The translations under genes and the position numbers were made by a program. DNA of 50,768 nucleotides, from sequence record NC_101820.1; one strand, given 5' to 3'. Positions 1 through 35,978 of this stretch are shown here, in pieces. The notes beneath the pieces were generated by a model that saw only the letters and a program-made list of their open reading frames with translations, did no database searches and was not told the DNA's origin. The stretch's first letter is position 1, and each line of letters opens with the position of its first letter. This DNA comes from a phage.

Positions 1-3
1 ACA

Positions 4-31
4 TTGACACGCACCAAATAGCTTTTATAAT
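4..31 (+). promoter_or_regulatory. sigma70-type consensus promoter (TTGACA, 16-nt spacer, TATAAT)
   Basis: TTGACA at 4-9 and TATAAT at 26-31, directly upstream of the first plus-strand gene. Confidence 0.6.
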
Positions 32-62
32 GCGCCAACAGTCAACAACTGGAGGAAAGGAA

Positions 63-527
63 ATGGAACAGAAGACCACTAAGGACTATTGCGATTGGCT
101 TCGCGAGCTTGGTCGCCGCCTGGCTAGTGGCGATATTGAAGAGTATAAAATGTCACTAATTGACCTGGCCGGAATGTTAAGCGGTGACGACTGCTACAAG
201 ATCACGCGCAGTTCATCCTACAGCCGGACCATTATCAACCGCGTTCCAGAAGTAAGGGCCGCAGGTCGGGTAAGCATCAAGGTAGAGGAAACGGAAGATG
301 ATAAATTTTACGTTTTCCGCATGGTCCGCGAATCGAAAAGGAAAATCATCACACCCGAAGAATTGCCAGCCATCAAGGCAAGGGCGATCAAAAAGTTTGC
401 CGATCGCATACTGGCAGCAATCCCGAATATCGTTGACCTGGAAGGGGATAAACTGGCTGGGGCTTGCGAGGGCGTAAGCCGCTACCAGGATATGATCCGC
501 GAAATCATCAAAGAGGAAGAGCAATGA
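63..527 (+). CDS. hypothetical early protein (154 aa), first gene after the consensus promoter
   Basis: ATG at 63 preceded by GGAGGAAAGG; in frame with track ORF 30..527; no recognisable domain. Confidence 0.6.
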   Translation: MEQKTTKDYCDWLRELGRRLASGDIEEYKMSLIDLAGMLSGDDCYKITRSSSYSRTIINRVPEVRAAGRVSIKVEETEDDKFYVFRMVRESKRKIITPEELPAIKARAIKKFADRILAAIPNIVDLEGDKLAGACEGVSRYQDMIREIIKEEEQ

Positions 528-796
528 AAAAGGCATTAATCAGCGTTCTGGCGGCAATGGCATTCCTGACCGGATGCAAAGAAGATGGCGCGCATGTTGG
601 CAATGTGCAGATGGCTAACCCTGGTGATGACTACAGCGTAAGGGAGCTATTCACCGCTGACGGTTGCACCGTTTACCGATTCTATGACGATCGCACTGTT
701 TACTTCACCAACTGCAAGGGCACTACTAGCTGGGAAGTGTCGAAAAGCAATGGCAAAAGCACGAAGACAGAACATATGACCGTCGAGACAAAATAG
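524..796 (+). CDS. small lipoprotein (signal peptide with lipobox LTGC)
   Basis: ATG overlaps the upstream stop (ATGA); N-terminus MKKALISVLAAMAFLTGC; in frame with track ORF 464..796. Confidence 0.6.
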   Translation: MKKALISVLAAMAFLTGCKEDGAHVGNVQMANPGDDYSVRELFTADGCTVYRFYDDRTVYFTNCKGTTSWEVSKSNGKSTKTEHMTVETK

Positions 797-836
797 CACT
801 TTTTGTTAAAACTCAAAAACGATAACCAGGCATAAT
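794..836 (+). promoter_or_regulatory. conserved 19-nt motif with -10-like CATAAT at offset +37
   Basis: TAGCACTTTTTGTTAAAAC starts with the TAG stop of the upstream gene; CATAAT at 831-836. Confidence 0.5.
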
Positions 837-839
837 ACA

Positions 840-1010
840 CACATAGACGGGCGGCAAGGATTGCTGCGGGAGAGGAGCGACGCAGGGGCTTGATCGAAGT
901 GTCAGGATTCCCAACCGTGAGGCCAGAACTATCACACTCGCCACCAGGCAGAACGCTAGATAGGTCACTGAACTGAGGCTACCGACGAAGTGAAGCCCGT
1001 CACCAAAGAT
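840..1010 (+). ncRNA. candidate structured GC-rich leader or small RNA
   Basis: About 170 nt of GC-rich sequence without a convincing ORF; terminal complementarity GACGGGC...GCCCGTC. Confidence 0.2.
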
Positions 1011-1038
1011 TAAACGGTTATTTATGTGAAAGGGGTTA

Positions 1039-1221
1039 ATGATGGATAAGATCATCAAAATGAGCGAAGTCAAGCCGGGAATGATGGTTAAGTTTGCTGG
1101 CAAATATCGCCTAGTGCTGGATAACTGCCGCAAAGAGAACATTCTTACAATTCGTGTAAATGGCAAGGCGCAGCTATTCGCCCCTAACGCAGATATTGAC
1201 GTTGAAGTTAGAATTAAGTAA
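1039..1221 (+). CDS. hypothetical small protein (60 aa)
   Basis: Track ORF; GGGG-rich RBS a few nt upstream of the ATG. Confidence 0.5.
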   Translation: MMDKIIKMSEVKPGMMVKFAGKYRLVLDNCRKENILTIRVNGKAQLFAPNADIDVEVRIK

Positions 1222-1236
1222 TTAGGAGAAATCACC

Positions 1237-2130
1237 ATGTTAAAACTTGCTGACATTAAATTCCCGATCACCTTCGAATCTCGCGGCATTGGTCATTACA
1301 TTTTTACCGATGAAAAAACATGCCATAAGGTTGATATGAATAGCGACAAACTAAGCCCATCAGACATGGAGATTGAACACTTCATTGATGCGCACAATAC
1401 GCAGTACAACGCACTTAAAGACTATGGCTATGCAATGCCAGGATATACCAGCTTCCACTACAAGCCATATAAAGGCCAGGTGTTGCCAGTGCGCTCACCG
1501 GAACGCGCAGAGATTCCGATGGTCGAGATGAAAACATGCGACTATAAAAAGCTGTGGTGCTTAAGTGTTGACAATATCAAGTATCCGATCACGTTCTACA
1601 CGGTTGGTAATTCAACGATTCGATTCACATCGCGCGACAATGGCGTTTATAGCGATGGTACGAAATCAGAGTTGAAAGTTGATTTCTTTGTCAACGGTCA
1701 CAATAGATACAATCCGCACAACGAAAAAGATAAAGTGTATTACGTGGAAGATATTACAAAACACTTATTTGGAGAAACTCCATTCGGCGGCGGTAAGACG
1801 TCAATTCAAAAAATCATTGGCGATGAGATCCACAAAGCGGCTGCCGAAATGAAAGCGCCTGGAGGCTGGCGTATTGACAAGAGCGCATTTGCAAATCAAG
1901 AAATCGTAACGCAGGGCGCAATTGAAGATATGCCAGTTGCAGCCACTCTAAAAGGAGTCCGGCTTGATGACGGCACCTGGTATGAAGTAACGGCTACACC
2001 AAAGACGATCGAGATTCATGATGACGTTGTTATCCTTCTGCTTCACTACGGCGGCTATAAAAACCGGACGATTGCAGGTGAGATCAGCATTAAGCGCGGA
2101 ACGATGGTTAAGTGGAAGGTGAAGATTTGA
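1237..2130 (+). CDS. hypothetical protein (297 aa) with an internal duplicated segment
   Basis: Track ORF with RBS AGGAG; IKFPITFESRG...YIFTDEK recurs as IKYPITFYTVG...IRFTSRD. Confidence 0.7.
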   Translation: MLKLADIKFPITFESRGIGHYIFTDEKTCHKVDMNSDKLSPSDMEIEHFIDAHNTQYNALKDYGYAMPGYTSFHYKPYKGQVLPVRSPERAEIPMVEMKTCDYKKLWCLSVDNIKYPITFYTVGNSTIRFTSRDNGVYSDGTKSELKVDFFVNGHNRYNPHNEKDKVYYVEDITKHLFGETPFGGGKTSIQKIIGDEIHKAAAEMKAPGGWRIDKSAFANQEIVTQGAIEDMPVAATLKGVRLDDGTWYEVTATPKTIEIHDDVVILLLHYGGYKNRTIAGEISIKRGTMVKWKVKI

Positions 2131-2206
2131 GTTTGCTCACTGCGGCGCACGTCGCCGCATGGATCGGATTGTTTTCCTACCTGTTTAGCTTTTATTGAGG
2201 TGAGAG

Positions 2207-2359
2207 ATGGCTACCTGGATTTTGCTGATTCTTATGATTGATGGCGGCGTTGACCATATCGAAATGAATAGCCAGCAATCTTGCATTGAGGCACGAGAGC
2301 AGATCAAGAACAACAACTGGTTTTATGTGTACACTCACACGCTATGTATTAAGAAATAG
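2207..2359 (+). CDS. small hydrophobic peptide (50 aa), paralog of 3648..3809
   Basis: ATG at 2207 after GAGGTGAGAG; MATWILLILMIDGG...; its TAG stop is the first triplet of the 19-nt motif. Confidence 0.4.
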   Translation: MATWILLILMIDGGVDHIEMNSQQSCIEAREQIKNNNWFYVYTHTLCIKK

Positions 2360-2398
2360 CACTTTTTGTTAAAACTCAAATGTGGGGCCAGGTATAAT
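2357..2398 (+). promoter_or_regulatory. conserved 19-nt motif with TATAAT inside a GGCC hairpin loop
   Basis: TAGCACTTTTTGTTAAAAC at 2357; GGCCaggTATAATGGCC with TATAAT at 2393-2398. Confidence 0.5.
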
Positions 2399-2428
2399 GG
2401 CCTCACTTTCAACGAAGGAGATAAAACG

Positions 2429-2650
2429 ATGTACATTAAAAAGAAGATGAAATGCGTTTCCGTTAACTATGCTTGCTCTGGCATGTTCAAGCCTGGCGAA
2501 ATCTATACGGCGCAAAAACTGAAAACATCAACCGGATCTTTTTACGTGAGCAATAGTAAGGGGCATCGCATGTTCCTGAACGGCGGCGAAGGCACTAAGG
2601 TTATGGCACACGCTATGGTAATGGCTGAATTTGAGGAAGTGAAACAATGA
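2429..2650 (+). CDS. small protein (73 aa), member of a four-copy family
   Basis: ATG at 2429 after AAGGAG; shares the KCV...FYLNGG-GT...AEFEEVK pattern with 2647..2892. Confidence 0.55.
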   Translation: MYIKKKMKCVSVNYACSGMFKPGEIYTAQKLKTSTGSFYVSNSKGHRMFLNGGEGTKVMAHAMVMAEFEEVKQ

Positions 2651-2892
2651 TCATTGAAAACAATTTTCTTTGCGTTAAGAGCAATAGACCATTCTTCACA
2701 CCTGGCAAGGTGTACCAGGGCAAGAAGGACACAAGAGATGGTCACTCTTATCATGTTCACTGCAACAACGGATACAAGTTTTACCTTAACGGCGAGAATG
2801 GAACTGAGATTGTTGCGTTTGAAAACGTAGTTGCAGAGTTCGAGCAGATTACAGACGCGGAATTTGAGGAAGTGAAAGATGAAAACAAATAA
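2647..2892 (+). CDS. small protein (81 aa), tandem paralog of 2429..2650
   Basis: ATGA overlap with upstream gene; LCVKSN...FYLNGENGT...AEFEQ...AEFEEVK. Confidence 0.6.
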   Translation: MIIENNFLCVKSNRPFFTPGKVYQGKKDTRDGHSYHVHCNNGYKFYLNGENGTEIVAFENVVAEFEQITDAEFEEVKDENK

Positions 2893-3100
2893 GCGCGTCA
2901 AGCACAGGTTTACTGATAACCACGGCGACGCGATTGATGTATACAAGTTTGGCGATCGAGTTTTTATTGATGGCACGTTTGAAGGTGGGCGTAGGCCGGA
3001 TTTTAGGTCGATACTTACCGTTGACCAAGTGCGCAAGCTGGCAGATAAGTTAAATGATCTGGCAGATGAAATAGAATACAAGCAAATCCATTTTAATTGA
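2879..3100 (+). CDS. hypothetical protein (73 aa)
   Basis: Track ORF overlapping the previous gene by 14 nt. Confidence 0.45.
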   Translation: MKTNKRVKHRFTDNHGDAIDVYKFGDRVFIDGTFEGGRRPDFRSILTVDQVRKLADKLNDLADEIEYKQIHFN

Positions 3101-3111
3101 TAGGTTTTATA

Positions 3112-3651
3112 ATGAAAAAATACACTTTCGAACTATGGGGCAAGAAGTACGAATTAATCACCAGCAAGCCGATTGTTATCGTTGACCTGGACGGCACACT
3201 ATCGGACGGATCGCATCGTTTGCATTTGCTGCCAACTGAAAACTTGCACCTTACGGAATCGTGGAGCGAATTTAACAGGGCCGCCGCCGGAGATTCACCG
3301 ATTAAAAGCACGATCGCGGTTATTAACGGTTTGTGGGTGTCGGGATTTGCCATCGTCATCTTGACCGGACGCAGCGACGAAGTGCGCTATGAAACATGCA
3401 AATGGTTGAATGAGAACGGCGTGAAGTTTGACGAAATCATCATGCGCCGCCAGGAGGACAACCGAAAGGATACGGTTATTAAAGAAGAAGCCTTGCGCGC
3501 TATTGGCCTGGACAATATTGTTTGCGCCTTTGACGATTCTCCGAACGTTGTTAAGCACTTCCGCAGCCTGGGAATCACAACCTATCAGGTCACGGAATAC
3601 GACAAGCCACACGCTCACATACAATCTCACGGCGTGGAGTGTTTAAAATGA
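3112..3651 (+). CDS. HAD-superfamily phosphatase (possible nucleotidase)
   Basis: Motifs IVIVDLDGTLSDG, ILTGR, a conserved Lys and FDDSPNVV match HAD motifs I-IV; start refined to ATG 3112. Confidence 0.7.
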   Translation: MKKYTFELWGKKYELITSKPIVIVDLDGTLSDGSHRLHLLPTENLHLTESWSEFNRAAAGDSPIKSTIAVINGLWVSGFAIVILTGRSDEVRYETCKWLNENGVKFDEIIMRRQEDNRKDTVIKEEALRAIGLDNIVCAFDDSPNVVKHFRSLGITTYQVTEYDKPHAHIQSHGVECLK

Positions 3652-3809
3652 CTTGGTTGCTTTTAATATTTGTCACAAGTTACAACTCCGCAGCTATTGA
3701 GTCGCAGGAGTTCCACGGCGAATCAAGATGCCAGGAAGCGCGAAAGCAAGTTGTTCTCCACATGTCAGATAGTGGGAAGGATGTAACAGCGTTATGCGTT
3801 CGTAAATAG
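3648..3809 (+). CDS. small hydrophobic peptide (53 aa), paralog of 2207..2359
   Basis: ATGA overlap with upstream stop; MTWLLLIFV...C.EAR.Q...LCVRK; stop is the TAG of the motif. Confidence 0.4.
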   Translation: MTWLLLIFVTSYNSAAIESQEFHGESRCQEARKQVVLHMSDSGKDVTALCVRK

Positions 3810-3850
3810 CACTTTTTGCAAAAAACAGATCATCGGGCTTGCTGTATAGT
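3807..3850 (+). promoter_or_regulatory. conserved motif variant with TATAGT in the loop of a GGGCTT/AAGCCC hairpin
   Basis: TAGCACTTTTTGCAAAAAAC at 3807; TATAGT at 3845-3850. Confidence 0.45.
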
Positions 3851-3881
3851 AAGCCCATCAACAACAAACGAGGATTAAATC

Positions 3882-4145
3882 ATGGCTAACAAGATCGAGT
3901 TTTTTAAAGCTGTAGACATTATCGACGGCGCGCCTAGCTTCTTTGCTATCCATTCTATTGACGGCAAGGATATTGGGTACAACGTTATCCGTCGAGATGG
4001 AATCTCAAAACTTAGCGAACTGGTAGGGCGTATTGTGTCAAACGGGAAATGCGCATGGCCCGATTCGCCACGAGAGCCACGCCGCCGCGACATGGTAGAG
4101 CCTGTTCTGCTTTACACTCTGGTAGTAGAGGGAGAAAATAAATGA
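3882..4145 (+). CDS. hypothetical protein (87 aa)
   Basis: Track ORF; leader ACAACAAACGAGGATTAAA is nearly identical to the leader of minus-strand gene 48863..49060. Confidence 0.55.
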   Translation: MANKIEFFKAVDIIDGAPSFFAIHSIDGKDIGYNVIRRDGISKLSELVGRIVSNGKCAWPDSPREPRRRDMVEPVLLYTLVVEGENK

Positions 4146-4327
4146 TTTTGTTACTTGCTTTTTTGGTTGTTTTTCTTTACATTTCAGGCTTATTCACGTT
4201 CCGCGCGTTTGTGAAATATTCTGGCGCGACAGACAAGGACGATAAAATCGTTCTCGCTTTCTGGTTTGTTTGGGTGTGGTTAGCAATTTACGAGATCATC
4301 AGAGACAAACAGAAATTTGAGTGGTGA
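4142..4327 (+). CDS. small membrane protein (61 aa, two hydrophobic segments)
   Basis: ATGA overlap with upstream gene; hydrophobic stretches LLLAFLVVFLYISGLF and IVLAFWFVWVWLAIY. Confidence 0.5.
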   Translation: MILLLAFLVVFLYISGLFTFRAFVKYSGATDKDDKIVLAFWFVWVWLAIYEIIRDKQKFEW

Positions 4328-4386
4328 TTCTTGCTATGGCGCATTCATGCAGTGCGCCATGTTGAGAAAACCTAAAGGGGGAGACG

Positions 4387-4536
4387 ATGCGTAACTTTGA
4401 AAAAATCATTACCAAAAAGAAGCGTCGCGGGTACGATGAGCATGTGGAGCTTGTGAAAAAGCAACGCAAGAAGCGCAACGAAGACAAGAAGCGCGGGAAA
4501 AAATTTAATGCGATTTTTCGCTATGGAGATCATTAA
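4387..4536 (+). CDS. small highly basic protein (49 aa)
   Basis: Not in track (<60 aa); ATG at 4387 after AAAGGGGGAG; MRNFEKIITKKKRRGY...; preceded by hairpin ATGGCGCA/TGCGCCAT at 4336-4360. Confidence 0.35.
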   Translation: MRNFEKIITKKKRRGYDEHVELVKKQRKKRNEDKKRGKKFNAIFRYGDH

Positions 4537-4538
4537 TC

Positions 4539-5129
4539 ATGAAACGAGACATTATCATCCTTAATGGGCCGCCAGGTTGCGGGAAGGACACTATTGCAGC
4601 TTACCTAACGGGCCATCGTTACCCAGCGGTTAAGGCGTCATTCAAACAGCCGATGTTCGATATTGCGTTTTCCATGCTTGGCCCGACTCGATATGATGAG
4701 TTTATTGACCTGTACAACGACCGTGAGCAAAAAGAAAAGCCTCAAGTTATCTTAGGCGGCAAGTCACCTCGACAATTCATGATCTGGATTAGCGAGGATG
4801 TAATGAAGCCAGTCTTTGGGGATCACTATTTCGGGCGTCGCATGGTTGAAGAGATTCACGAGATGTACCGAGATTTGGCGGTTGTGATCAGTGATGGAGG
4901 ATTCCCCGAAGAAGTCAAGCCGCTTGTTAAGGCAGGGCATGATGTGCATATTTGCCGATTGCATCGCGACGGCTTCACGTTTGCTGGCGATTCGAGAGAC
5001 TACATTGACCTGAGCGGTTATCACTATCGAATCCATCACTATGACTTCCACTTGCAGGACGGCAAGCCGGAACTGGCTGTAAACGAGATCGTCAATGCTG
5101 TCAAATGGAAGCACACAAAGATTAAATAG
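4539..5129 (+). CDS. P-loop kinase, dNMP-kinase-like
   Basis: Walker A GPPGCGKDT; overall pattern resembles phage deoxynucleoside monophosphate kinases (from memory, unverified). Confidence 0.6.
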   Translation: MKRDIIILNGPPGCGKDTIAAYLTGHRYPAVKASFKQPMFDIAFSMLGPTRYDEFIDLYNDREQKEKPQVILGGKSPRQFMIWISEDVMKPVFGDHYFGRRMVEEIHEMYRDLAVVISDGGFPEEVKPLVKAGHDVHICRLHRDGFTFAGDSRDYIDLSGYHYRIHHYDFHLQDGKPELAVNEIVNAVKWKHTKIK

Positions 5130-5169
5130 CACGAATTGCTAAACGCGGGGCGCAATGCCTCGCTATAAT
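5127..5169 (+). promoter_or_regulatory. motif variant (TAGCACGAATTGCTAAAC) with TATAAT at offset +37
   Basis: TAG stop of the kinase gene at 5127-5129; TATAAT at 5164-5169. Confidence 0.45.
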
Positions 5170-5199
5170 GCAAACACCAATCAACGAGAGGAAACAATC

Positions 5200-5601
5200 A
5201 TGGTGGAGTTAAACGACATTCGCGTTGGAACAAAATTTCGCGTAACCTGGGCAGATAAATATTGTGGCGTTAGCAAGGGCCAGGTTGTTGCGGTGGATAG
5301 TATTTATCGTGGTGTTAGTGGTGACTTTCGCCGTCCGCGCATCAATGATGGCTATATCATTACTCGCCGTATTGGCTTTGATAATTATTGCGTAGTGGCG
5401 ACTCAAGGAGTTTTGATTGAGCTTAAGAGAATCAGCGATCATCGCGGTCGTCATGTTAAGGCAATGAAAACACCATTTCAGCGAGCGAGATACGATGCGC
5501 GACGTATGCGCCGACTTGCGCGAAATGCGATCAAGTTCAAAAAGCCTGGCGATGATTTTTACGGCATGTATAAGGGGATTGCTCGCAATGCTGGGAAATA
5601 A
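5200..5601 (+). CDS. hypothetical protein (133 aa)
   Basis: Start refined to ATG 5200 (RBS GAGAGG) downstream of the promoter; in frame with track ORF 5155..5601. Confidence 0.55.
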   Translation: MVELNDIRVGTKFRVTWADKYCGVSKGQVVAVDSIYRGVSGDFRRPRINDGYIITRRIGFDNYCVVATQGVLIELKRISDHRGRHVKAMKTPFQRARYDARRMRRLARNAIKFKKPGDDFYGMYKGIARNAGK

Positions 5602-5700
5602 CAATAACGCAACGAATCCTAAGCCACCTTTTGATTTTCATTCCGCAATGATTGCGGTATTATCAATGCTACTTTTTCTTTATAGCATGAGGGCGCTACT

Positions 5701-5949
5701 ATGGTTTTTAACGCATTGAAACGACTGTTTAAGCCGGAATACCGGATCGTATTTTGCCGCGACTGTTCTACTTATCATGTGCAGAGACGCAGCTTAGGCG
5801 GCAATTGGCACTATGTTACAGATGACTTTTTCGGCATCATTGCCACTGAATTTAAGTGTTATAGCGATGCTTATATGTATGTCAAGAAGCGCCACCGCTT
5901 ACGCAAGTGTCGTTTTTCCGCACTGATTCACTTTAATGATTGTTACTGA
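5701..5949 (+). CDS. hypothetical Cys-rich protein (82 aa)
   Basis: Track ORF; CRDC and C...C pairs suggest a zinc ribbon. Confidence 0.45.
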   Translation: MVFNALKRLFKPEYRIVFCRDCSTYHVQRRSLGGNWHYVTDDFFGIIATEFKCYSDAYMYVKKRHRLRKCRFSALIHFNDCY

Positions 5950-5956
5950 GGTGAAA

Positions 5957-6139
5957 ATGAAAACTGGTGTTATTATTCTTTTTCTGATCCTTTTAGGCAG
6001 CCATTTAACCATTAACTATGAGGGCATTATGGCCTTTTGGGGCAACTTGATGATGTTTGCTGCTGGTTCAATTGCTGGCTACTCTGACGGGAAAAAGGAT
6101 GGTGTGCGCAAGATGCTGATGGGGCTTAAACAAAAATAA
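5957..6139 (+). CDS. small membrane protein (60 aa)
   Basis: ATG at 5957 after GAGGTG; hydrophobic N-terminus MKTGVIILFLILLG; in frame with track ORF 5936..6139. Confidence 0.45.
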   Translation: MKTGVIILFLILLGSHLTINYEGIMAFWGNLMMFAAGSIAGYSDGKKDGVRKMLMGLKQK

Positions 6140-14445: not shown

Positions 14446-15042
14446 ATGGCTAAAGATTATTCATCTGTTATGGGTCTTTCTTGCCCTGGTTGTTTGGTTG
14501 ATTCTACTCGCTACAATATTGATGGAACTGGTGTTTGCGGATCTGAGTCGATCATTGCTGGCAAGGTTGTTTTCTTCAAAGAGAGAGTAGAAGGTTATAA
14601 CATATTTGTTGATCAAAAAGAGGATAATGCAGTAGTTGCTGGTATTGCGCTAAGGAGCAACATAACAACAACAGTTAACGAGGATGGCGGGTACTCTGAC
14701 TACAAAGAAGGTGATCCTATTAGCGTTGTAACTCGTGGTCGCGTGTGGGTGTTAACTGAAAGTATTGATGAAGCTCCTTCACACGGTGAAAAAGTATATG
14801 TTAATAACGATGGATTTGTTGGTAAGTCCGGCGACCAGGTTGTTGATGGGTGGATTTTTACAGGTGATTTTATGAAATTTGACAGTAGCATTAACATTGT
14901 AGGGATTCATATCAAACCTGTAATAGTACATGTTCAAAAGTTAACAGCGGCTATTATTGAAGATGTTGAAGGTAACAAGCCTGATGGAAACAGACCAAAC
15001 AATGAGCCTGTTAATCTCAAGGTTACTGTAGAGCCTGAATGA
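14446..15042 (+). CDS. capsid-associated protein, paralog 2
   Basis: 198 aa; paralogous to 13886..14395; followed by a start-less open frame. Confidence 0.5.
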   Translation: MAKDYSSVMGLSCPGCLVDSTRYNIDGTGVCGSESIIAGKVVFFKERVEGYNIFVDQKEDNAVVAGIALRSNITTTVNEDGGYSDYKEGDPISVVTRGRVWVLTESIDEAPSHGEKVYVNNDGFVGKSGDQVVDGWIFTGDFMKFDSSINIVGIHIKPVIVHVQKLTAAIIEDVEGNKPDGNRPNNEPVNLKVTVEPE

Positions 15043-15238
15043 ATATGCAACAGATAAAACTGGAACATGGGAGATTTCATTAGGAGGAGAATACGCATCA
15101 ATTTCGCCAAGTGGTGACACGGCGCAAGTAACGCCATCAAGCAATGGTGATGTATATGTAAACTGGGTGGCAAATGACGGATCTGGTGTATCTGACACAT
15201 TTATCATCAACTTTGTAGATCCAGAGCCTGGCCCTTAA
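15032..15238 (+). other. start-less open frame (about 68 codons) with Ig-like sequence character; candidate +1 frameshift extension
   Basis: Frame +1 relative to 14446..15042 is open from 15032 to TAA at 15236-15238 with no ATG, GTG or TTG near its 5' end; translation ...TGTWEISLGGEYASISPSGDTAQVTPSSNGDVYVNWVANDGSGVSDTFIINFVDPEPGP. Confidence 0.35.
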
Positions 15239-18968: not shown

Positions 18969-19008
18969 CATTCCTGTAAAATCAATCTATCAAATAAATT
19001 AATTCCAC

Positions 19009-19026
19009 TTTTAACAAAAAGTGCTA
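19009..19026 (-). promoter_or_regulatory. conserved motif, inverted, abutting the RBS of the tail chaperone gene
   Basis: TTTTAACAAAAAGTGCTA immediately followed by TAAGGAG and the ATG at 19042. Confidence 0.4.
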
Positions 19027-19715: not shown

Positions 19716-22397
19716 ATGGCTGAAAAATACGCTGGCCTAACGCTAGGCGTTGACGTGTCGCAGGTCAACAATGCTGTTAAATCATTGCAGCAATTCAAGA
19801 AGGCAAACGACGACGCAAAAAAAAGCGTTAATGAATTTGTTGATTCTGAGGTTGTGGCCCGACAGCAAGCAAAACAGCTTGCCGAAGAACTGGCGCGCCA
19901 GAAAGCAGAATTTAAGAAAATCCAGGAGTCAATTGATCCCACTGCATCAAAGATGGATAAGCTGCGAAAGGCAGCGACACAGCTTGATGCGCTATGGAAA
20001 AAGGGCGTTGTTCCTGATCAGACTTTTTTTGAGCTTGGGGCAATTCTTGAGACGCAGCAAAACAAGCTGATCGCAACCAAAAAAGCGATGACAGAGGAAG
20101 GCCGCGCGGCGCTTGAGGAATCAAAGAACAAGGCGCGTGCAGCGGAAGAGGCTAAAAAATTCGTCCAGGCTTTGCGTGAGCAGGAAGAAGCAGCAGGAAA
20201 AAGCAAGTCTGAATTGCTGGAAATGAAAGCGGCACAGCTTGGAGTTAGCCAGGAGGCAGCACCTTACATCGCAAGGCTGAAAGAGCAGGAAAAGCAGATC
20301 CAGAAACTTGGGATTTCTACAGGCCAATACAAACAAGCAATGGCGCAATTGCCAATGCAGATCACAGACGTGGTGACTTCACTTGCTTCTGGTATGCCAG
20401 TTTGGTTGGTCGCAGTCCAGCAGGGTGGACAGATCAAGGATTCTTTTGGTGGTGCATCCAATGCTTTAAAAGCGTTGCTATCTTTCCTGAATCCGGTAAA
20501 CGTGGCGTTTGGCTTGCTTTCCGGCACGCTGGCAATTGCTGCATATAATGCCTACAAAGCACAGACAGAGCTTGAGGCAATTAAAAAAACCGTTCAGGAA
20601 ACAACTGGCTTGAGTGGTGAGTTTGCCGAAAAGATTGCTATAGGAATCCAGGAGCTTTCCGACAAGACAGGCGAAAGCGCCGAAGATCTGGCAAAGGCTT
20701 ACATAACAACGAAAGACGGCGCGAGCGAGGCGATTAAAAAACTGGTTGACGTTGGAATGACTTATGATGACGCAAAAAAGAAAGTCAACGAGTACAAGGG
20801 CGCGTCTAGCTTTGTCAGCTTGAATAACGAAATTGCAAACCACAAAAACAAAGTCCTTGAGTTGGGCGAGTCGTGGTATGAAGTTTTGAAAGCTAAGCGT
20901 GATTACGCTTCCCCGTCCGGCGGCCTGTTAGGTAAAGAGCTTGGCTATGTTAATCCTATGCTTAAGTTTGCACTTAACACTTATGAAGACATTGGAAAGG
21001 TCGTAAAAGATGCGAATAAGGACATGGCGGAACGAGCGGAGCGAATCGACAAAGAAAACCTGGCCTTAAACAGAGTGCGCGCAGCACAGGAGGCTTTAAA
21101 CAAAGCCATTGAGGATCAGAAAAATGTGGCGCGTTCGGCTGATGAAGAACTGAAAAAGCGCGCGGCTGAAAACGTGGAGTTTAGGCGCAAAGAGCTTGAG
21201 GAAATCAAGAAGCAGGAGCAGAAAAAGAAAGAGGCTAAAGGGGGAATAGTTCGCGGCCCTACTGAGCAGCTTGATAAAGAGTTGTACGTTTTAAAGGCGC
21301 AACTGGAAACTCTTAAAGAGCATCGCACTGTTAACGATGTTATTTCTCGCCAGCGTAAATCTTTATGGAGCATCGAAAAGCAGATCGAGATCCTGGAGAA
21401 TGCGCAGAGCAAGCGTAAATTGACCGGAGCGGAACAGGCGCTACTAAACGAGCAAAAGGCCGTTCTTGAAATGGCAAGACAAAAAGCTGAGCTAGGGGAT
21501 CAGATTGTTTTGCAGGAGCGCAAAAACAAGCTGGAGCAAGATAGTCTTAAGTTTATCCGTGAAACTGAGGCTGCTATTGATGCGATTGGCCTTAAGCAAC
21601 TTGGCTACACTGAAAAGAAGATCGAGCGTGAGCTAGAGTTACGCAAGCTGCGCACCGACTACGAGGCGCAAGGCGGAAGCGTTAGCGACGAAGTTTTTCA
21701 GCAAATGGAGACGAAACTTAAGCTGTATTACCAGGCACAAGACGAGGCGCAAGGCAACTGGTTAGCCGGAGCAAAGAACGCATGGGAGCTATTCGCGGAA
21801 GATGCAAACAATGCCTATGGCAATGTTCAGCAGATCGCAAGCGAGGCGTTAAACGGCCTTACAAACCAATTAGCGAATTTTATAGCTACTGGCAAGGCAA
21901 ACTTTAAAGACTTCTCGACGGCTATCATCAAAATGATTATTCAGATGATCACGAAAATGGTCGTCTTTAATGCGTTATCTGGCCTGATGGGTGGTCAAAC
22001 ATGGACGATGGGGAGCTTGCTTAAGAATATTGGCGGATTTGCTGGCGGTGGATACACTGGCGACGGCGGGAAGTATGAGCCAGCCGGAATTGTCCATAAA
22101 GGTGAATTTGTCATGACGAAGGAGGCGACGCAGCGTATTGGGGTAGGAAACTTGTACCGCATGATGCGAGGCTATGCTAACGGCGGCGTTGTTGGTAGTT
22201 CCGGCTATACTGGCGGTGGCGCTGTAACTGGTGGAGCACCTCAATTTAACATCGGCGGGATTGATGTTAGCATCACTAACGGAAACGATCCGAAGGGCAT
22301 CGAAACTGGTGTTAAGATGATCTTTACTGATATGATTAAACGTTCCTGTATGCAGGGCGGCGAGGTTTACGAATTTGTTATGAGCAAGCGAGGTTGA
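19716..22397 (+). CDS. tail tape measure protein
   Basis: 893 aa, highly alpha-helical K/E/A-rich sequence with glycine-rich C-terminal region; canonical position. Confidence 0.9.
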   Translation: MAEKYAGLTLGVDVSQVNNAVKSLQQFKKANDDAKKSVNEFVDSEVVARQQAKQLAEELARQKAEFKKIQESIDPTASKMDKLRKAATQLDALWKKGVVPDQTFFELGAILETQQNKLIATKKAMTEEGRAALEESKNKARAAEEAKKFVQALREQEEAAGKSKSELLEMKAAQLGVSQEAAPYIARLKEQEKQIQKLGISTGQYKQAMAQLPMQITDVVTSLASGMPVWLVAVQQGGQIKDSFGGASNALKALLSFLNPVNVAFGLLSGTLAIAAYNAYKAQTELEAIKKTVQETTGLSGEFAEKIAIGIQELSDKTGESAEDLAKAYITTKDGASEAIKKLVDVGMTYDDAKKKVNEYKGASSFVSLNNEIANHKNKVLELGESWYEVLKAKRDYASPSGGLLGKELGYVNPMLKFALNTYEDIGKVVKDANKDMAERAERIDKENLALNRVRAAQEALNKAIEDQKNVARSADEELKKRAAENVEFRRKELEEIKKQEQKKKEAKGGIVRGPTEQLDKELYVLKAQLETLKEHRTVNDVISRQRKSLWSIEKQIEILENAQSKRKLTGAEQALLNEQKAVLEMARQKAELGDQIVLQERKNKLEQDSLKFIRETEAAIDAIGLKQLGYTEKKIERELELRKLRTDYEAQGGSVSDEVFQQMETKLKLYYQAQDEAQGNWLAGAKNAWELFAEDANNAYGNVQQIASEALNGLTNQLANFIATGKANFKDFSTAIIKMIIQMITKMVVFNALSGLMGGQTWTMGSLLKNIGGFAGGGYTGDGGKYEPAGIVHKGEFVMTKEATQRIGVGNLYRMMRGYANGGVVGSSGYTGGGAVTGGAPQFNIGGIDVSITNGNDPKGIETGVKMIFTDMIKRSCMQGGEVYEFVMSKRG

Positions 22398-24883: not shown

Positions 24884-24926
24884 TAGCACAATATGTTAAA
24901 GCGAAAACGGATTTTCGCTTTACAAT
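24884..24926 (+). promoter_or_regulatory. motif variant (TAGCACAATATGTTAAAGC) with hairpin and TACAAT at offset +37
   Basis: Hairpin AAGCGAAAA/TTTTCGCTT; TACAAT at 24921-24926. Confidence 0.35.
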
Positions 24927-24943
24927 TAATTAAGGATGTGATC

Positions 24944-25060
24944 ATGTGGCGTGATATTTTTTATTATAATGACGGTAAGTTATTTTGGGCTGTAGACGTA
25001 GGAAGAAGGATAAAGAAAGGAAGTGAGGCAGGAAGCGGCAGAAAAGATGATAGAGATTGA
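24944..25060 (+). pseudogene. remnant of an HNH (HNH_3-type) homing endonuclease N-terminus
   Basis: 38-codon ORF MWRDIFYYNDGKLFWAVDVGRRIKKGSEAGS... matches the N-terminal pattern of phage HNH endonucleases (from memory); no catalytic region follows. Confidence 0.35.
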
Positions 25061-25102
25061 AGTTTTAAACAAATTCCACATAAACCACGGAAAGTAGATT
25101 TA

Positions 25103-33984: not shown

Positions 33985-35978
33985 TATACAATTTCCCCCA
34001 TTTGGTGATCTGTTAGTGTCTTGTGCCATATGCGGAAGTTTCTTAAGTGTCCGAAAAAGTGACGAGCACCATCAGATCCTGCGCCACCGAATCTTATTAT
34101 CTTACTGGTTGTTGGCTTAAAACCATGCTTAACCTCTGCTTTGTTCCCTTTTACGGAATTTGAAAAGATATACGCATAACTCCCGTCGTATACTCCGCCA
34201 ACTGTTATTGCTCCCTGAGCAGAATCATAATTATTCTTTATTTCAGTGGAAATGTATACGGTTGGTGACTCGCCATATCTAGCAATATTCCAGTATGTTG
34301 AATGTTTATCGCTTCTTATTGAGCATACCATTGACTCGCCAACATCAGGCGCACCAATATCCCATATCCTCGGCGCTGAATTTGGTAAGGTAGTCCATGT
34401 TTTATTTACCTCAAGCAAAAAACTAAGCGGGTGAGATATTAAATTATTAAATGACACGACATTAACTAAGTCACTAACCCTTGTCGCAGGAGTTCCCTCT
34501 GTGACGATAAATGACGACGAGCACGCACCACCTTCCACTTGAGGTGTTGAGATGTATATGTAATCATTAACTTCTGTGCTTCCTCCTTTTCGCGGGGCAT
34601 ATTGCACCATTGCACCAATCATGCTTTCCTGTTCTAATGCTGTGATCGTAGCCTCAAAAAATATCCATTTGCTTGACTCATCCATTACCGCTCTTGCTGT
34701 TATCCTGTTTGCAGCGCCGCCGGTTTTTTCTATTGACAAATCCTCAAGACCGAGATAAGCACCACCTAGAAAGGTATATTCGCTATCATTATAACTTCCA
34801 AATCCAAGTCTGCATCTTATGTTTCCTTCACCACCCTTGACTCTGCATGAGATTGTTACTCTTTTTTCTTCACCAGTAACATCAAAACCCTTATTACCAG
34901 ATACTGTAACTATGTTAATAGCCGATGTTTGCCCTACCATTTCTGGATTTAATGTAAACTTGCCAAATGAAAAACCGAAATCATCAACTCCTGATTGGCT
35001 TAACACCATGTTTGATGACTTGTTCCATTTTGAAGGATTGGTACTATTTATGAGAAGGTTTGTTCTCTGCCCCTCAATTAGCAAGCCTTCACGTTCAAAA
35101 CGCGGTTCGTCAAAGTCAGCATCAGTAAGAAATCCCGACTTATTAATGTATGTCGCCTTTGATGCTCGCTTAAAATTTACAACTTTATCTGACGGCATAT
35201 TGATCACATCATCACCAACTTTTATCTTTTTATACCCAGGCGCAAAACCAGTTATCATATCAAGTGAATCATTAAACGGTATCCACACGTCCGGCAACGG
35301 TTGCAATAAATCTTTGTAAGGTTCTGCGGCCTGCTTTGCGTATTCCTCCGCTTGATCTCGCGCACTTTCAGCTCCTGCCTTTGCAGTGTTCGCAGCGTCA
35401 CGCGCGGATTCAGCGCCAGACTTTGCTGTTTCAGCTCCAGTCTTTGCAGTGTTTGCAGCGTCGCGCGCGGATTCAGCGGCAGCCTTTGCAGTATCAGCAC
35501 CTTTCTTGCTATTCGCTGCATTTGTTGCGCTTGTCTTCGCGTTATTCTCGCTGGTTTTAGCTGCCTGCTGGCTTGCTGATGCTGCATCAGCATTTGTCTT
35601 TACGTCTTCCTGGATCTTCTGTAGCTTATCCCAATCAAAATCCTTGATGATCTCAATAAATCCAGCAAACTCCGATTCCTTCCCCTGGTAATAACGCAGC
35701 GTTTCCGCTACGTCTTGCGCAAGACCGTCAACCGTTAACGAGTCATGAAGCAAGATCAGGTAATTTGTCTTCTGTACTACCGCGCCGCCAGTAGTAATTG
35801 CGCGAATGCTTGTATCGCTAATCACTTCCGTAATCACAGCAGCTTGCAAAGGTTGAGAAAGAAAGAAAATAGTTGCACCTGGGCGAATCAAGGTTAATTG
35901 CTCACGCCATTTTGTACCGTAACCAGTTACATAACCTTGCGCGTCCATAGACGCTTGGCCTTGTCTGTAAATCGCCAT
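33984..35978 (-). CDS. side tail fibre protein
   Basis: About 665 aa; A/K/T/S-rich repeats (AKTSATNAANSKKGADTAKAAAESARDAANTAK...) and a C-terminal globular domain; start refined to ATG 35978 after AGGAGG. Confidence 0.75.
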   Translation of the reverse strand: MAIYRQGQASMDAQGYVTGYGTKWREQLTLIRPGATIFFLSQPLQAAVITEVISDTSIRAITTGGAVVQKTNYLILLHDSLTVDGLAQDVAETLRYYQGKESEFAGFIEIIKDFDWDKLQKIQEDVKTNADAASASQQAAKTSENNAKTSATNAANSKKGADTAKAAAESARDAANTAKTGAETAKSGAESARDAANTAKAGAESARDQAEEYAKQAAEPYKDLLQPLPDVWIPFNDSLDMITGFAPGYKKIKVGDDVINMPSDKVVNFKRASKATYINKSGFLTDADFDEPRFEREGLLIEGQRTNLLINSTNPSKWNKSSNMVLSQSGVDDFGFSFGKFTLNPEMVGQTSAINIVTVSGNKGFDVTGEEKRVTISCRVKGGEGNIRCRLGFGSYNDSEYTFLGGAYLGLEDLSIEKTGGAANRITARAVMDESSKWIFFEATITALEQESMIGAMVQYAPRKGGSTEVNDYIYISTPQVEGGACSSSFIVTEGTPATRVSDLVNVVSFNNLISHPLSFLLEVNKTWTTLPNSAPRIWDIGAPDVGESMVCSIRSDKHSTYWNIARYGESPTVYISTEIKNNYDSAQGAITVGGVYDGSYAYIFSNSVKGNKAEVKHGFKPTTSKIIRFGGAGSDGARHFFGHLRNFRIWHKTLTDHQMGEIV

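What the first reader, a model, noticed from the sequence alone, without database searches (positions are those of the whole stretch)
840..1010. GC-rich structured leader or small RNA downstream of the first motif promoter
Between the -10 at 831-836 and the gene at 1039 lies about 170 nt of sequence that is noticeably more GC-rich than its surroundings. It has no plausible ORF, and its ends are complementary (GACGGGC at about 846, GCCCGTC at about 997), with several internal stem candidates. It could be a riboregulator, a protein-binding RNA or an RNA-based anti-defence element.
Basis: seen in the sequence. Interest (0 to 1): 0.4.

Follow-up and report, generated by a model that had tools for sequence, protein, structure and literature searches.

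The report
New structured leader RNA in coliphages
The GC-rich stretch is a real, about 156-nucleotide folded RNA at the very start of an early phage message; unrelated virulent phages of enteric bacteria share it in front of unrelated genes, it matches no catalogued RNA family, and its job is still unknown.

Summary
Window 846-1001 (+) is GC-rich, non-coding and closed by GACGGGC/GCCCGTC. Folding energy of the single sequence gives no support (z = +0.58), but comparison does.

The same roughly 156-nt element occurs once each in 171 GenBank phage records: all sampled Dhillonvirus, some Warwickvirus, Sortsnevirus, Changchunvirus PHB17, KA2-1 and BUCT618. It is absent from 5,426 complete E. coli genomes and from the plasmid collection.

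Across 36 distinct sequences, six helices (P1-P6) are 92% paired, against 28-43% for slid controls. 23 of 33 pairs change on both sides. About 70 junction and loop positions are invariant.

There is no Rfam 15, tRNA or tmRNA match, and I found no paper describing it.

The element always starts a few nucleotides after a sigma-70 -10 box and ends 26-47 nt before a start codon. The first gene downstream belongs to at least 12 unrelated families.

In a 98%-identical sister phage (tuinn), the core plus the 60-aa gene is missing as one 360-bp block, and a plain 5' hairpin remains.

Best reading (about 0.45): a portable, gene-independent cis-acting 5' leader domain for early accessory cassettes. Rivals are an orphan riboswitch, a processed trans-acting decoy RNA, a put-like antiterminator and a ribozyme. 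The function is inferred, not shown.

The parts
796..836 (+). Promoter: repeated motif GCACTTTTTGTTAAAACTCAAA (796-817) plus the -10 box CATAAT (831-836). The inferred transcription start is about 842-845.
   Evidence: The motif occurs 3 times in the window against 0 expected. A -10-like box lies 7-10 nt before P1 in every clade, although the promoters themselves are otherwise unrelated. The transcription start is inferred, not mapped.
846..1001 (+). The whole structured RNA domain (P1 through P1'), a single copy in this genome.
   Evidence: The covariance model R1 hits window 840-1005 at 144.7 bits, E 2.6e-37, and gives no other hit in the window.
846..852 (+). P1 5' strand (GACGGGC). It pairs with 995-1001.
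   Evidence: All 5 modelled pairs change on both sides. Examples are GACGG/CCGTC, GGGCG/CGCCC, GTCGAC/GTCGAC and AGGCAG/CTGCCT.
853..865 (+). P2 hairpin (GGCAA-GGA-TTGCT). The GGA in the loop (858-860) is invariant.
   Evidence: The stem varies as GCAA/TTGC, GCA/TGC, AGCTATA/TATAGCT and TGC/GCA, while the loop keeps (A)GGA(Y). The P1/P2 boundary can slide by 2 nt.
866..884 (+). J2/3, a purine-rich invariant strand (GGAGAGGRGYRACGCW). Positions 874-878 (GGAGC) are the 5' strand of candidate helix P7.
   Evidence: Invariant columns are listed. For P7, 5 pairs are 100% paired in 36 sequences, with one covarying pair (A-U in 18, G-C in 18). This is a single clade split, so P7 is tentative.
885..912 (+). 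P3 hairpin: outer GGGG/TCCC with an AT bulge (907-908), inner CTTGAT/GTCAGG, loop CGAAGT (895-900).
   Evidence: 95.6% paired. Compensatory variants are CTTGTT/AACAGG, TTTGAT/GTCAGA and CCGGAT/GTCTGG. An invariant G.U at the outer stem marks the + strand as the folded one.
913..923 (+). J3/4, with the invariant AACCGTGA followed by a variable palindromic stretch (GGCC here).
   Evidence: Invariant in all 37 sequences.
924..971 (+). The P4-P5-P6 arm. P4 is 924-926 with 969-971. P5 is 929-933 with 959-963. The invariant internal loop is ACACTC (934-939) and AGAACGCTA (950-958). P6 is 940-942 with 947-949, with loop ACCA.
   Evidence: P4 is 99% paired (3 of 3 pairs covary), P5 is 97% (5 of 6) and P6 is 100% (3 of 3). 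P5 has 11 fully complementary variants, including A-U/U-A/C-G swaps within Dhillonvirus alone. The window's own MFE fold contains P1, P3, P4, P5 and P6.
972..994 (+). J4/1, with the invariant AGGCYACCGACGARG (976-990). Positions 978-980 and 982-983 are the 3' strand of candidate P7.
995..1001 (+). P1 3' strand (GCCCGTC).
1002..1038 (+). Unstructured A/C-rich linker (ACCAAAGATTAAAC...) and a Shine-Dalgarno-like AGGGG (1031-1035).
   Evidence: A similar ACC-W3-TTAAAC/AACC linker followed by GGAG is seen in all clades. It is also present in relatives that have only the plain hairpin.
1039..1221 (+). Cargo gene: a 60-aa protein of unknown function (phrog_8121). It is gained or lost together with the RNA core.
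   Evidence: Window 860-1219 is one discrete block missing from phage tuinn, which is 98% identical elsewhere.

Best explanation
What is shown: a roughly 156-nt RNA domain folds as P1-P2-(P7)-P3-P4/P5/P6 around junctions of invariant nucleotides. It is encoded on the + strand immediately after a sigma-70-type promoter.

What is inferred: the domain is the extreme 5' end of an early mRNA and acts in cis as a portable, gene-independent leader module for short early accessory-gene cassettes.

Proposed mechanism (inferred):
- P1 begins 0-4 nt after the transcription start, so the 5'-triphosphate end is buried in a helix. This is the known way a 5'-terminal stem-loop shields E. coli mRNAs from RppH and from 5'-end-dependent RNase E attack.
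- The invariant junction core docks a conserved host component (ribosome or S1, RNase E, CsrA-type protein or RNA polymerase) or a small ligand. This sets the lifetime and/or translation of whatever cistron follows the A/C-rich linker and Shine-Dalgarno sequence.
- The partner would be host-encoded. That would explain why unrelated phages that share enterobacterial hosts keep the same about 70 nucleotides.
For: 1. The structure is real. In 36 distinct sequences, 92% of cells are paired against 28-43% with slid partners. 23 of 33 pairs change on both sides, the covariation score is 0.44 against 0.02-0.07, and 0 of 500 shuffles reach it. The hand-derived helix table agrees. P3 and P6 sit between invariant anchors without gaps, so their covariation does not depend on the alignment.
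2. The folded strand is the + strand. Invariant G.U pairs would be C.A mismatches on the other strand.
3. The position is fixed. A -10 box lies 7-10 nt before P1 in every clade, although the promoters are otherwise unrelated.
4. A start codon follows 26-47 nt after P1. No terminator-like site lies between the element and the gene.
5. The first downstream genes fall into at least 12 unrelated families, all of unknown function. Four BUCT618-like contigs carry four different first genes behind the same element.
6. In this species the core and the 60-aa gene are present or absent as one 360-bp block. This is the comparison of the window with tuinn, 98% identical over 48.7 kb.
7. Element-less relatives keep the same promoter, a plain GGGCG-loop-CGCCC 5' hairpin and the same A/C-rich linker plus GGAG. 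The core therefore looks like an elaboration of a 5'-terminal hairpin leader.
8. The transcription units are short cassettes bounded by terminators.
9. The element is phage-only: 171 phage records, no match in any of 5,426 complete E. coli genomes, and no match in the plasmid collection (72,556 records).
Against: - No transcript data were available. The transcription start, the 3' end and the stability of the RNA are all inferred.
- A plain hairpin evidently suffices as a leader in sister phages. End protection therefore does not explain why a 140-nt core with about 70 invariant positions is maintained. That part of the mechanism is a placeholder for an unknown partner.
- I saw no conserved alternative pairing between the element and the Shine-Dalgarno region; this was an inspection of the sequences by eye, not a systematic test.
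- Phage genomes are compact, so a gene start close behind the element is expected whatever the element does.
- Folding energy of the single sequence is unremarkable.
- The covariation was counted on an alignment fitted to the model, which leans towards the structure.
- The sample has only about 8 clades, so many 'events' are shared by descent.
Confidence: 0.45

Rival explanations
1. Processed, trans-acting non-coding RNA. The domain would be cut from the 5' end of the mRNA (for example by RNase E in the A/U-rich linker) and would accumulate. It would then act as a decoy or sponge for a host protein (CsrA, Hfq, an RNase) or for an RNA-sensing or RNA-cleaving defence system. On this reading the RNA itself is the accessory, counter-defence function.
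For: The RNA is the constant part of the cassette and the protein cargo is interchangeable. It is driven by strong early promoters. It is dispensable and polymorphic within a species, like anti-defence genes. It occurs only in virulent phages. The P2 loop is an invariant (A)GGA(Y) on a variable stem, which by my recollection of the CsrA/RsmE literature is the classic binding shape for those proteins. Two more GGA motifs lie nearby.
Against: None of about 14 contexts has its own terminator or any other 3'-end signal after the element. The linker and Shine-Dalgarno architecture is the same as in plain-hairpin leaders. There are no repeats of the ToxI or Racr kind. GGA motifs do not explain the invariant P5/P6 internal loop or J4/1.
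Confidence: 0.2
2. Orphan riboswitch or aptamer. The junction core would bind a small molecule (a host-state metabolite or a nucleotide second messenger). It would tune expression of the early cassette through translation, Rho or RNase E rather than through an intrinsic terminator.
For: The anatomy is what riboswitch aptamers look like. Covarying stems surround highly conserved junctions and internal loops, the peripheral P6 loop is variable, and the element lies in a 5' UTR directly upstream of a Shine-Dalgarno sequence. Two mutually exclusive pairings exist for GGGG(885-888): the P3 outer stem, or pairing with the CC of J4/1. These could in principle be switch states.
Against: The downstream genes share no function or family, whereas riboswitch regulons are normally coherent. 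No terminator and no conserved Shine-Dalgarno-sequestering helix was found. There is no match to any Rfam riboswitch even at E <= 10. The alternative pairing involves only invariant bases, so it cannot be tested.
Confidence: 0.15
3. A processive antitermination RNA acting in cis on RNA polymerase, like HK022 put. It would let transcripts from this promoter read through downstream terminators.
For: It is promoter-proximal, gene-independent and phage-borne, and these phages rely on host RNA polymerase. Conservation would be explained by a conserved host target. In Dhillonvirus a strong terminator follows the first gene. The next genes on the same strand start right after it, with no predicted promoter for about 2 kb.
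Against: In BUCT618-like and L029-like phages the cassette ends at a strong terminator that is followed at once by a new promoter, so read-through is not needed. The window has no terminator-like site in its first 6 kb. The element is dispensable in this species. By my recollection, put is two stem-loops of about 70 nt; I did not compare the sequences. Here there are six to seven helices in 156 nt.
Confidence: 0.08
4. A self-cleaving or otherwise catalytic RNA (a new ribozyme class) that remodels the 5' end of the early mRNA.
For: It has a large invariant core with covarying stems, and small ribozymes are often found in phage genomes (my recollection of the literature).
Against: There is no match to any ribozyme family in Rfam. 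No conserved candidate cleavage site could be identified, and nothing in the context calls for cleavage.
Confidence: 0.04
5. No RNA function. On this reading the segment is a conserved 'linker' kept by recombination between mosaic phage modules, a DNA-level site, or a small ORF.
For: It lies exactly at mosaic boundaries, with different genes downstream. Some GenBank records annotate hypothetical proteins over it, and in PHB17 a methyltransferase CDS runs into it.
Against: Compensatory double changes in six helices, together with strand-specific G.U pairs, cannot be produced by a DNA-level constraint or by recombination hitch-hiking. Indels of 1-2 nt rule out a conserved reading frame. The PHB17 CDS has no Pfam domain at all.
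Confidence: 0.03

Closest known systems
HK022 putL/putR (polymerase-utilisation RNAs; processive antitermination)
   Same: Both are phage-encoded, lie just downstream of early sigma-70 promoters, act whatever gene follows, and would have a host machine as presumed partner. Dhillonvirus has a terminator after the first gene.
   Different: By my recollection, put is two stem-loops of about 70 nt found in temperate lambdoid phages. This element is a 156-nt multi-junction fold in virulent phages. Several cassettes end at terminators followed by new promoters, and the element is dispensable within a species. No sequence comparison with put was run.
5'-terminal stabiliser stem-loops of E. coli and phage mRNAs (ompA-type leaders; established knowledge)
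   Same: P1 starts within a few nucleotides of the inferred transcription start, followed by an unstructured linker and a Shine-Dalgarno sequence. Sister phages carry just such a plain hairpin at the same place.
   Different: A stabiliser needs only a hairpin. Here 140 nt with about 70 invariant positions are inserted in the hairpin, and that is not explained by end protection.
Riboswitch aptamers and orphan riboswitch candidates
   Same: The element has covarying helices around invariant junctions, a length of about 150 nt, and a 5'-UTR location.
   Different: There is no expression platform, no coherent regulon and no Rfam match. No ligand is known.
CsrA/RsmE-binding RNAs (CsrB/CsrC sponges; the flhDC 5' leader that CsrA protects from RNase E)
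   Same: An invariant (A)GGA(Y) is presented in the loop of a short variable hairpin (P2) at the extreme 5' end, with further GGA motifs 12 and about 50 nt downstream.
   Different: Only 2-3 GGA sites are present. Most of the conserved core (J3/4, the P5/P6 internal loop, J4/1) has no GGA. Binding was not tested.
Large phage-associated structured RNAs of unknown function (ROOL, GOLLD)
   Same: These are also phage-borne, complex-folded orphan RNAs found by comparative analysis. They are reported to form homo-oligomers (abstract of PMC12286853, listed). Here short palindromes (GGCC, TACGTA, TATATA) occupy one junction position.
   Different: Those RNAs are much larger and are free-standing genes. 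This element is a 156-nt mRNA leader. Oligomerisation here is pure speculation.

Membership tests
Any Rfam 15 family (4,227 covariance models) | A match to the family model at the gathering score, or at least a suggestive sub-threshold hit | tested here: not met
   There were no matches at gathering score for the whole window. There were none at E <= 10 for 700-1300. Nothing fell on the element at E <= 10 in five other clades.
tRNA / tmRNA / tRNA-like | A cloverleaf or tRNA-like domain recognisable by ARAGORN, and a conserved NCCA after the acceptor stem | tested here: not met
   ARAGORN finds no genes in the window. ACCA follows P1 here, but other clades have ACCT, CAAC, TAAA or ACAA.
HK022 put-type antiterminator RNA | Lies downstream of an early promoter and upstream of terminators that must be read through | tested here: inconclusive
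   The promoter-proximal position is met in all clades. A terminator without a following promoter is seen in Dhillonvirus. Elsewhere terminators are followed by new promoters, and the window has none in 1-6000.
HK022 put-type antiterminator RNA | Two-stem-loop architecture of about 70 nt (from memory) | tested here: not met
   The element has six to seven helices in 156 nt. No sequence comparison with put was run.
Riboswitch | A conserved aptamer: covarying stems with conserved junctions | tested here: met
Riboswitch | An expression platform: a terminator/antiterminator pair or a helix that sequesters the Shine-Dalgarno sequence | tested here: not met
   No terminator-like site lies between the element and the gene in any clade. 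By eye, I saw no conserved pairing with the Shine-Dalgarno region in the sequences.
Riboswitch | Functionally coherent downstream genes | tested here: not met
   The first genes fall into at least 12 unrelated families, all of unknown function.
Riboswitch | Specific ligand binding | not testable with these tools
   This needs in-line probing, ITC or a similar assay.
5'-terminal stabiliser hairpin | A stem beginning no more than about 4 nt from the 5' end of the transcript | tested here: inconclusive
   P1 starts 7-10 nt after the -10 box in all clades, which implies 0-4 unpaired 5' nucleotides. The transcription start is not mapped.
CsrA-binding RNA | GGA in hairpin loops, with at least two sites 10-63 nt apart (from memory) | tested here: inconclusive
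   The P2 loop GGA is invariant on a covarying stem. The GGA of GGAGAGG lies about 12 nt downstream. The third GGA (CAGGAT) is lost in L054 and altered in L031. Binding was not tested.
Repeat-array RNA antagonists (ToxI-type antitoxin, CRISPR-repeat mimics) | Tandem repeats | tested here: not met
   No tandem repeats were found in 600-1400.
Retron ncRNA | Terminal inverted repeat plus an adjacent reverse transcriptase gene | tested here: not met
   A terminal helix is present. The flanking genes are small unknowns with no Pfam domain: the downstream 60-aa gene has no Pfam hit, and the ORFs of the region are all small.

The most novel reading that the evidence does not exclude
The core may be a natural aptamer carried by virulent phages. 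It would be either a riboswitch that reads a host-state or immune-signalling nucleotide and switches on whatever counter-defence cargo sits behind it, or an abundant early RNA 'sponge' for such a molecule or for a host defence or RNA-binding protein. Either way, it would be a new class of RNA-based phage control or counter-defence module, in phages that grow on E. coli K-12 and are therefore easy to test.
Probability: 0.12. Interest if true: 0.9.

Novelty: new variant of a known kind. Interest (0 to 1): 0.62.

Why it matters
Complex-folded RNAs with many invariant junction nucleotides usually do something specific: they bind a ligand, a protein or a cellular machine. This one is uncatalogued, yet it sits in about 170 sequenced virulent coliphages, including members of widely used collections that grow on E. 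coli K-12. It heads hypervariable early cassettes of unknown function, the kind of place where host-takeover and counter-defence genes are found.

Nature also supplies a ready control. Phage tuinn is 98% identical to this window but carries a plain hairpin instead of the element. The function can therefore be tested directly with reporters, half-life measurements, pull-downs and defence-system panels.

If the element is only an expression booster, it is a compact, portable leader of practical use. If it is an aptamer or a decoy, it is a new kind of phage RNA tool.

Tried and rejected
- Single-sequence folding gave no signal on either strand (z = +0.58 and +0.29).
- Rfam, at gathering score and at the permissive threshold, gave nothing. 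ARAGORN also gave nothing.
- RNAalifold on MAFFT alignments mis-registered the variable stems and proposed a long-range helix made only of invariant bases. I kept this as an untestable alternative. I replaced it with a hand-derived model plus a covariance-model alignment.
- The genome-contig scan gave only chance hits in high-GC bacteria plus one mis-binned phage contig. The metagenome scan added a few variants but no new clade.
- One IMG/VR scan was wasted on a wrong gap length. The corrected scan and another with looser anchors found no new clades.
- An all-against-all column scan for extra covarying pairs mostly returned artefacts of the clade split. Only the P7 candidate was kept.
- I considered a k-turn or tandem-GA reading of GGCC..GA/GA..GGCT in type I sequences. 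I dropped it because type II sequences lack it.
- A T-loop reading of the P3 loop does not fit.
- A Dhillonvirus-specific pairing between GTTAAG and the linker CTTAAC is not conserved elsewhere.
- I looked for a phage-encoded partner protein. The downstream proteins are unrelated, and the comparison with tuinn shows no co-lost gene other than the 60-aa cargo.
- The 60-aa protein has no Pfam, NCBIfam or PDB relative.
- Literature searches by taxon, by topic and by the invariant strings found nothing on this element. One large catalogue of candidate phage RNAs (PMC10690425) could not be checked, because its supplements are not held.

Full report
**What the window is.** The 50.8-kb window is essentially a whole genome of a T1-like virulent coliphage. 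It is 99% identical to Escherichia phage vB_EcoS_swan01 (Drexlerviridae, Tempevirinae, Warwickvirus). The finding lies in the rightward block of small early genes that precedes the terminase genes; gene order in the sister phage tuinn shows this.

**Check of the observation.** Every sequence statement is correct.
- CATAAT lies at 831-836, GACGGGC at 846-852 and GCCCGTC at 995-1001. ATG lies at 1039 and 1042.
- GC content is 0.56-0.61 inside, against 0.39-0.46 in the flanks.
- The only internal ORF is a 28-aa TTG ORF.
- Taken alone, the sequence folds no better than shuffled versions (z = +0.58; minus strand z = +0.29).
- It matches nothing in Rfam 15, at gathering score or at E <= 10, and it is not a tRNA or tmRNA.

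On that basis alone it could have been dismissed.

**Relatives.** A sensitive BLAST changed the picture.
- A roughly 150-nt core is shared with phages that otherwise have no nucleotide similarity to this one. These are Dhillonvirus (HK578, WFI and about 130 other records), Sortsnevirus (sortkaff, IME279, Lumpael), Klebsiella phage KA2-1, BUCT618 and Changchunvirus PHB17.
- The core alone matches 171 GenBank phage records. It matches none of 5,426 complete E. coli genomes and no plasmid record.
- Pattern scans of IMG/VR and of metagenomes added further variants, including a new clade (L054). The scan of species-representative genomes gave only chance hits plus one mis-binned phage contig.
- In total there are 37 distinct sequences in about 8 clades.
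- Looser anchor patterns found no more distant members. The family looks confined to virulent siphophages of Enterobacteriaceae, or else more distant members have diverged at the anchors I used.

**Structure.** Alignment shows blocks of invariant sequence separated by stems that differ yet stay complementary.
- The invariant blocks are GGAGAGGRGYRACGCWGGGG, CAGGATTCCYAACCGTGA, CACT, AGAACGC and AGGCYACCGACGARG.
- I derived the helices by hand and seeded a covariance model with 12 collinear sequences. I then let the model align all 37.
- On 36 distinct rows, 92% of cells form standard pairs, against 28-43% when partners are slid by 1-3 columns. 23 of 33 pairs show changes on both sides. The covariation score is 0.44 against 0.02-0.07, and 0 of 500 shuffles reach it.
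- In window coordinates:

| Helix | Coordinates | Note |
|---|---|---|
| P1 | 846-852 / 995-1001 | terminal helix |
| P2 | 853-857 / 861-865 | invariant GGA loop |
| P3 | 885-894 / 901-912 | AT bulge; loop CGAAGT |
| P4 | 924-926 / 969-971 | |
| P5 | 929-933 / 959-963 | |
| P6 | 940-942 / 947-949 | |

- An invariant internal loop (ACACTC / AGAACGCTA) lies between P5 and P6.
- P5 has 11 fully complementary versions. Within Dhillonvirus alone one P5 pair switches A-U, U-A and C-G.
- P3 and P6 lie between invariant anchors without gaps, so their covariation does not depend on the fitted alignment.
- Invariant G.U pairs show that the + strand is the folded one.
- The window's own minimum-energy fold contains P1, P3, P4, P5 and P6.
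- A further long-range helix, P7 (874-878 with 978-980 and 982-983), is 100% paired, with one A-U/G-C covariation. That covariation rests on a single clade split, so P7 is tentative.
- RNAalifold proposed a competing pairing of GGGG(885-888) with J4/1. It involves only invariant bases and cannot be tested.

**Context.**
- In every clade a sigma-70-type -10 box lies 7-10 nt before P1, although the promoters are otherwise unrelated. The element should therefore be the very 5' end of the transcript.
- It is followed by an A/C-rich linker, a Shine-Dalgarno sequence and a start codon 26-47 nt later. A terminator never follows it directly.
- The first downstream genes fall into at least 12 families unrelated by BLASTP. 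None has a known function. Four BUCT618-like contigs have four different first genes behind the same element.
- The units are short cassettes. In BUCT618-like phages the layout is terminator, promoter, element, three small genes, terminator, next promoter. L029-like phages have a similar layout.
- In Dhillonvirus a strong terminator follows the first gene, an acidic, lysine-rich protein. The next genes follow without a predicted promoter.
- Each source searched has exactly one copy.

**A natural deletion control.**
- Phage tuinn belongs to the same species and is 98% identical over 48.7 kb. It lacks window 860-1219, that is the RNA core plus the 60-aa gene, as one block.
- tuinn and SECphi27 keep the same promoter, a plain 5' hairpin (GGGCG-loop-CGCCC) and an A/C-rich linker with GGAG.
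- The element is therefore dispensable. It travels with its cargo gene and looks like an elaboration inserted into a generic 5'-terminal hairpin leader. No other gene is obviously lost with it.

**Interpretation.**
- Shown: this is a conserved, selected, + strand RNA structure of a family not present in Rfam 15. I did not find it in the searchable literature.
- Inferred: it works in cis as a gene-independent leader module. P1 buries the 5' end, and the invariant core engages a conserved host partner or ligand to set the stability or translation of the cassette mRNA (confidence about 0.45).
- The weak point is that a plain hairpin already serves sister phages, so the real role of the core is unknown.
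- Rivals:
  - A processed trans-acting decoy or sponge RNA (0.2). The P2 loop is a textbook CsrA-type GGA hairpin, but there is no 3'-end signal.
  - An orphan riboswitch (0.15). The anatomy is aptamer-like, but there is no expression platform and no coherent regulon.
  - A put-like antiterminator (0.08). This fits Dhillonvirus but not the terminator-bounded cassettes, nor the dispensability.
  - A ribozyme (0.04).
  - No RNA function (0.03). The covariation contradicts this.

**Novelty and interest.** This is a new RNA family of a familiar general kind, a structured 5' leader, with an architecture unlike its closest functional analogues. It would interest RNA and phage specialists because it is complex, widespread in laboratory-tractable coliphages and heads hypervariable early cassettes. 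It also comes with a natural isogenic control. What limits the score is the unknown function and the modest phylogenetic depth of the family.

Noticed in passing
window 4-31: A perfect consensus sigma-70 promoter (TTGACA, 16 nt, TATAAT; 12 of 12) at the very start of the window. It presumably heads the rightward early operon.
   Followed up: no
window 796-817, 2359-2380, 19003-19024 (-): The 22-nt motif GCACTTTTTGTTAAAACTCAAA upstream of -10 boxes occurs three times, against 0 expected. Only the first copy carries the structured RNA. The third copy, on the minus strand, is followed by a GGGGCG-CAA-CGCCCC hairpin.
   Followed up: partly
L120 1240-1290 (SECphi27); L121 1240-1290 (tuinn); L007 570-596: Many Drexlerviridae have a plain GGGCGG-loop-CCGCCC hairpin followed by AC(A/T)AAACC and GGAG at the 5' end of early leaders. 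This looks like the 'empty' form of the element's P1.
   Followed up: partly
window 1-6000: There are no intrinsic-terminator-like sites at all in the first 6 kb, where shuffles give 6.0 +/- 2.6.
   Followed up: no
window 1598-1613: Inside the next gene (297 aa), ACACGGTTGGTAATTC is complementary to the invariant GGATTCCCAACCGTGA at 13 of 16 positions, 9 of them contiguous. Two such 3-mismatch matches occur in the window, against 0.31 expected. tuinn has this gene without the element, so it is probably chance.
   Followed up: partly
L007 843-1601 (PHB17): The CDS annotated as 'DNA methyltransferase' runs through the promoter and about 90 nt into the RNA element, and it has no Pfam domain. The annotation is doubtful. 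Several other records annotate hypothetical proteins over the element.
   Followed up: partly
L006 1665-2183 and homologues (Dhillonvirus): The first gene after the element in Dhillonvirus encodes a 143-181-aa protein. It has AKKAPAKGKAKK-type repeats alternating with long D/E runs (phrog_3127, unknown function) and is followed by a strong terminator. It may be a DNA mimic or nucleoid-binding early protein.
   Followed up: no
window 921-924; equivalent position in other clades: The variable stretch after AACCGTGA is a short palindrome in every type (GGCC, TACGTA or TATATA). This could allow RNA-RNA dimerisation or be coincidence.
   Followed up: no
L076 (QFQS01000013.1): A 42.8-kb contig binned as a Cereibacter sphaeroides MAG carries a Sortsnevirus-type copy of the element. 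It is almost certainly a mis-binned enterobacterial phage contig.
   Followed up: no
window 3640-3802, 14871-15235, 21543-22065, 24884-25102, 34065-34477: These are the other blocks present in the window but not matched in the first 50 kb of phage tuinn. They are further accessory indels between two genomes that are 98% identical.
   Followed up: no
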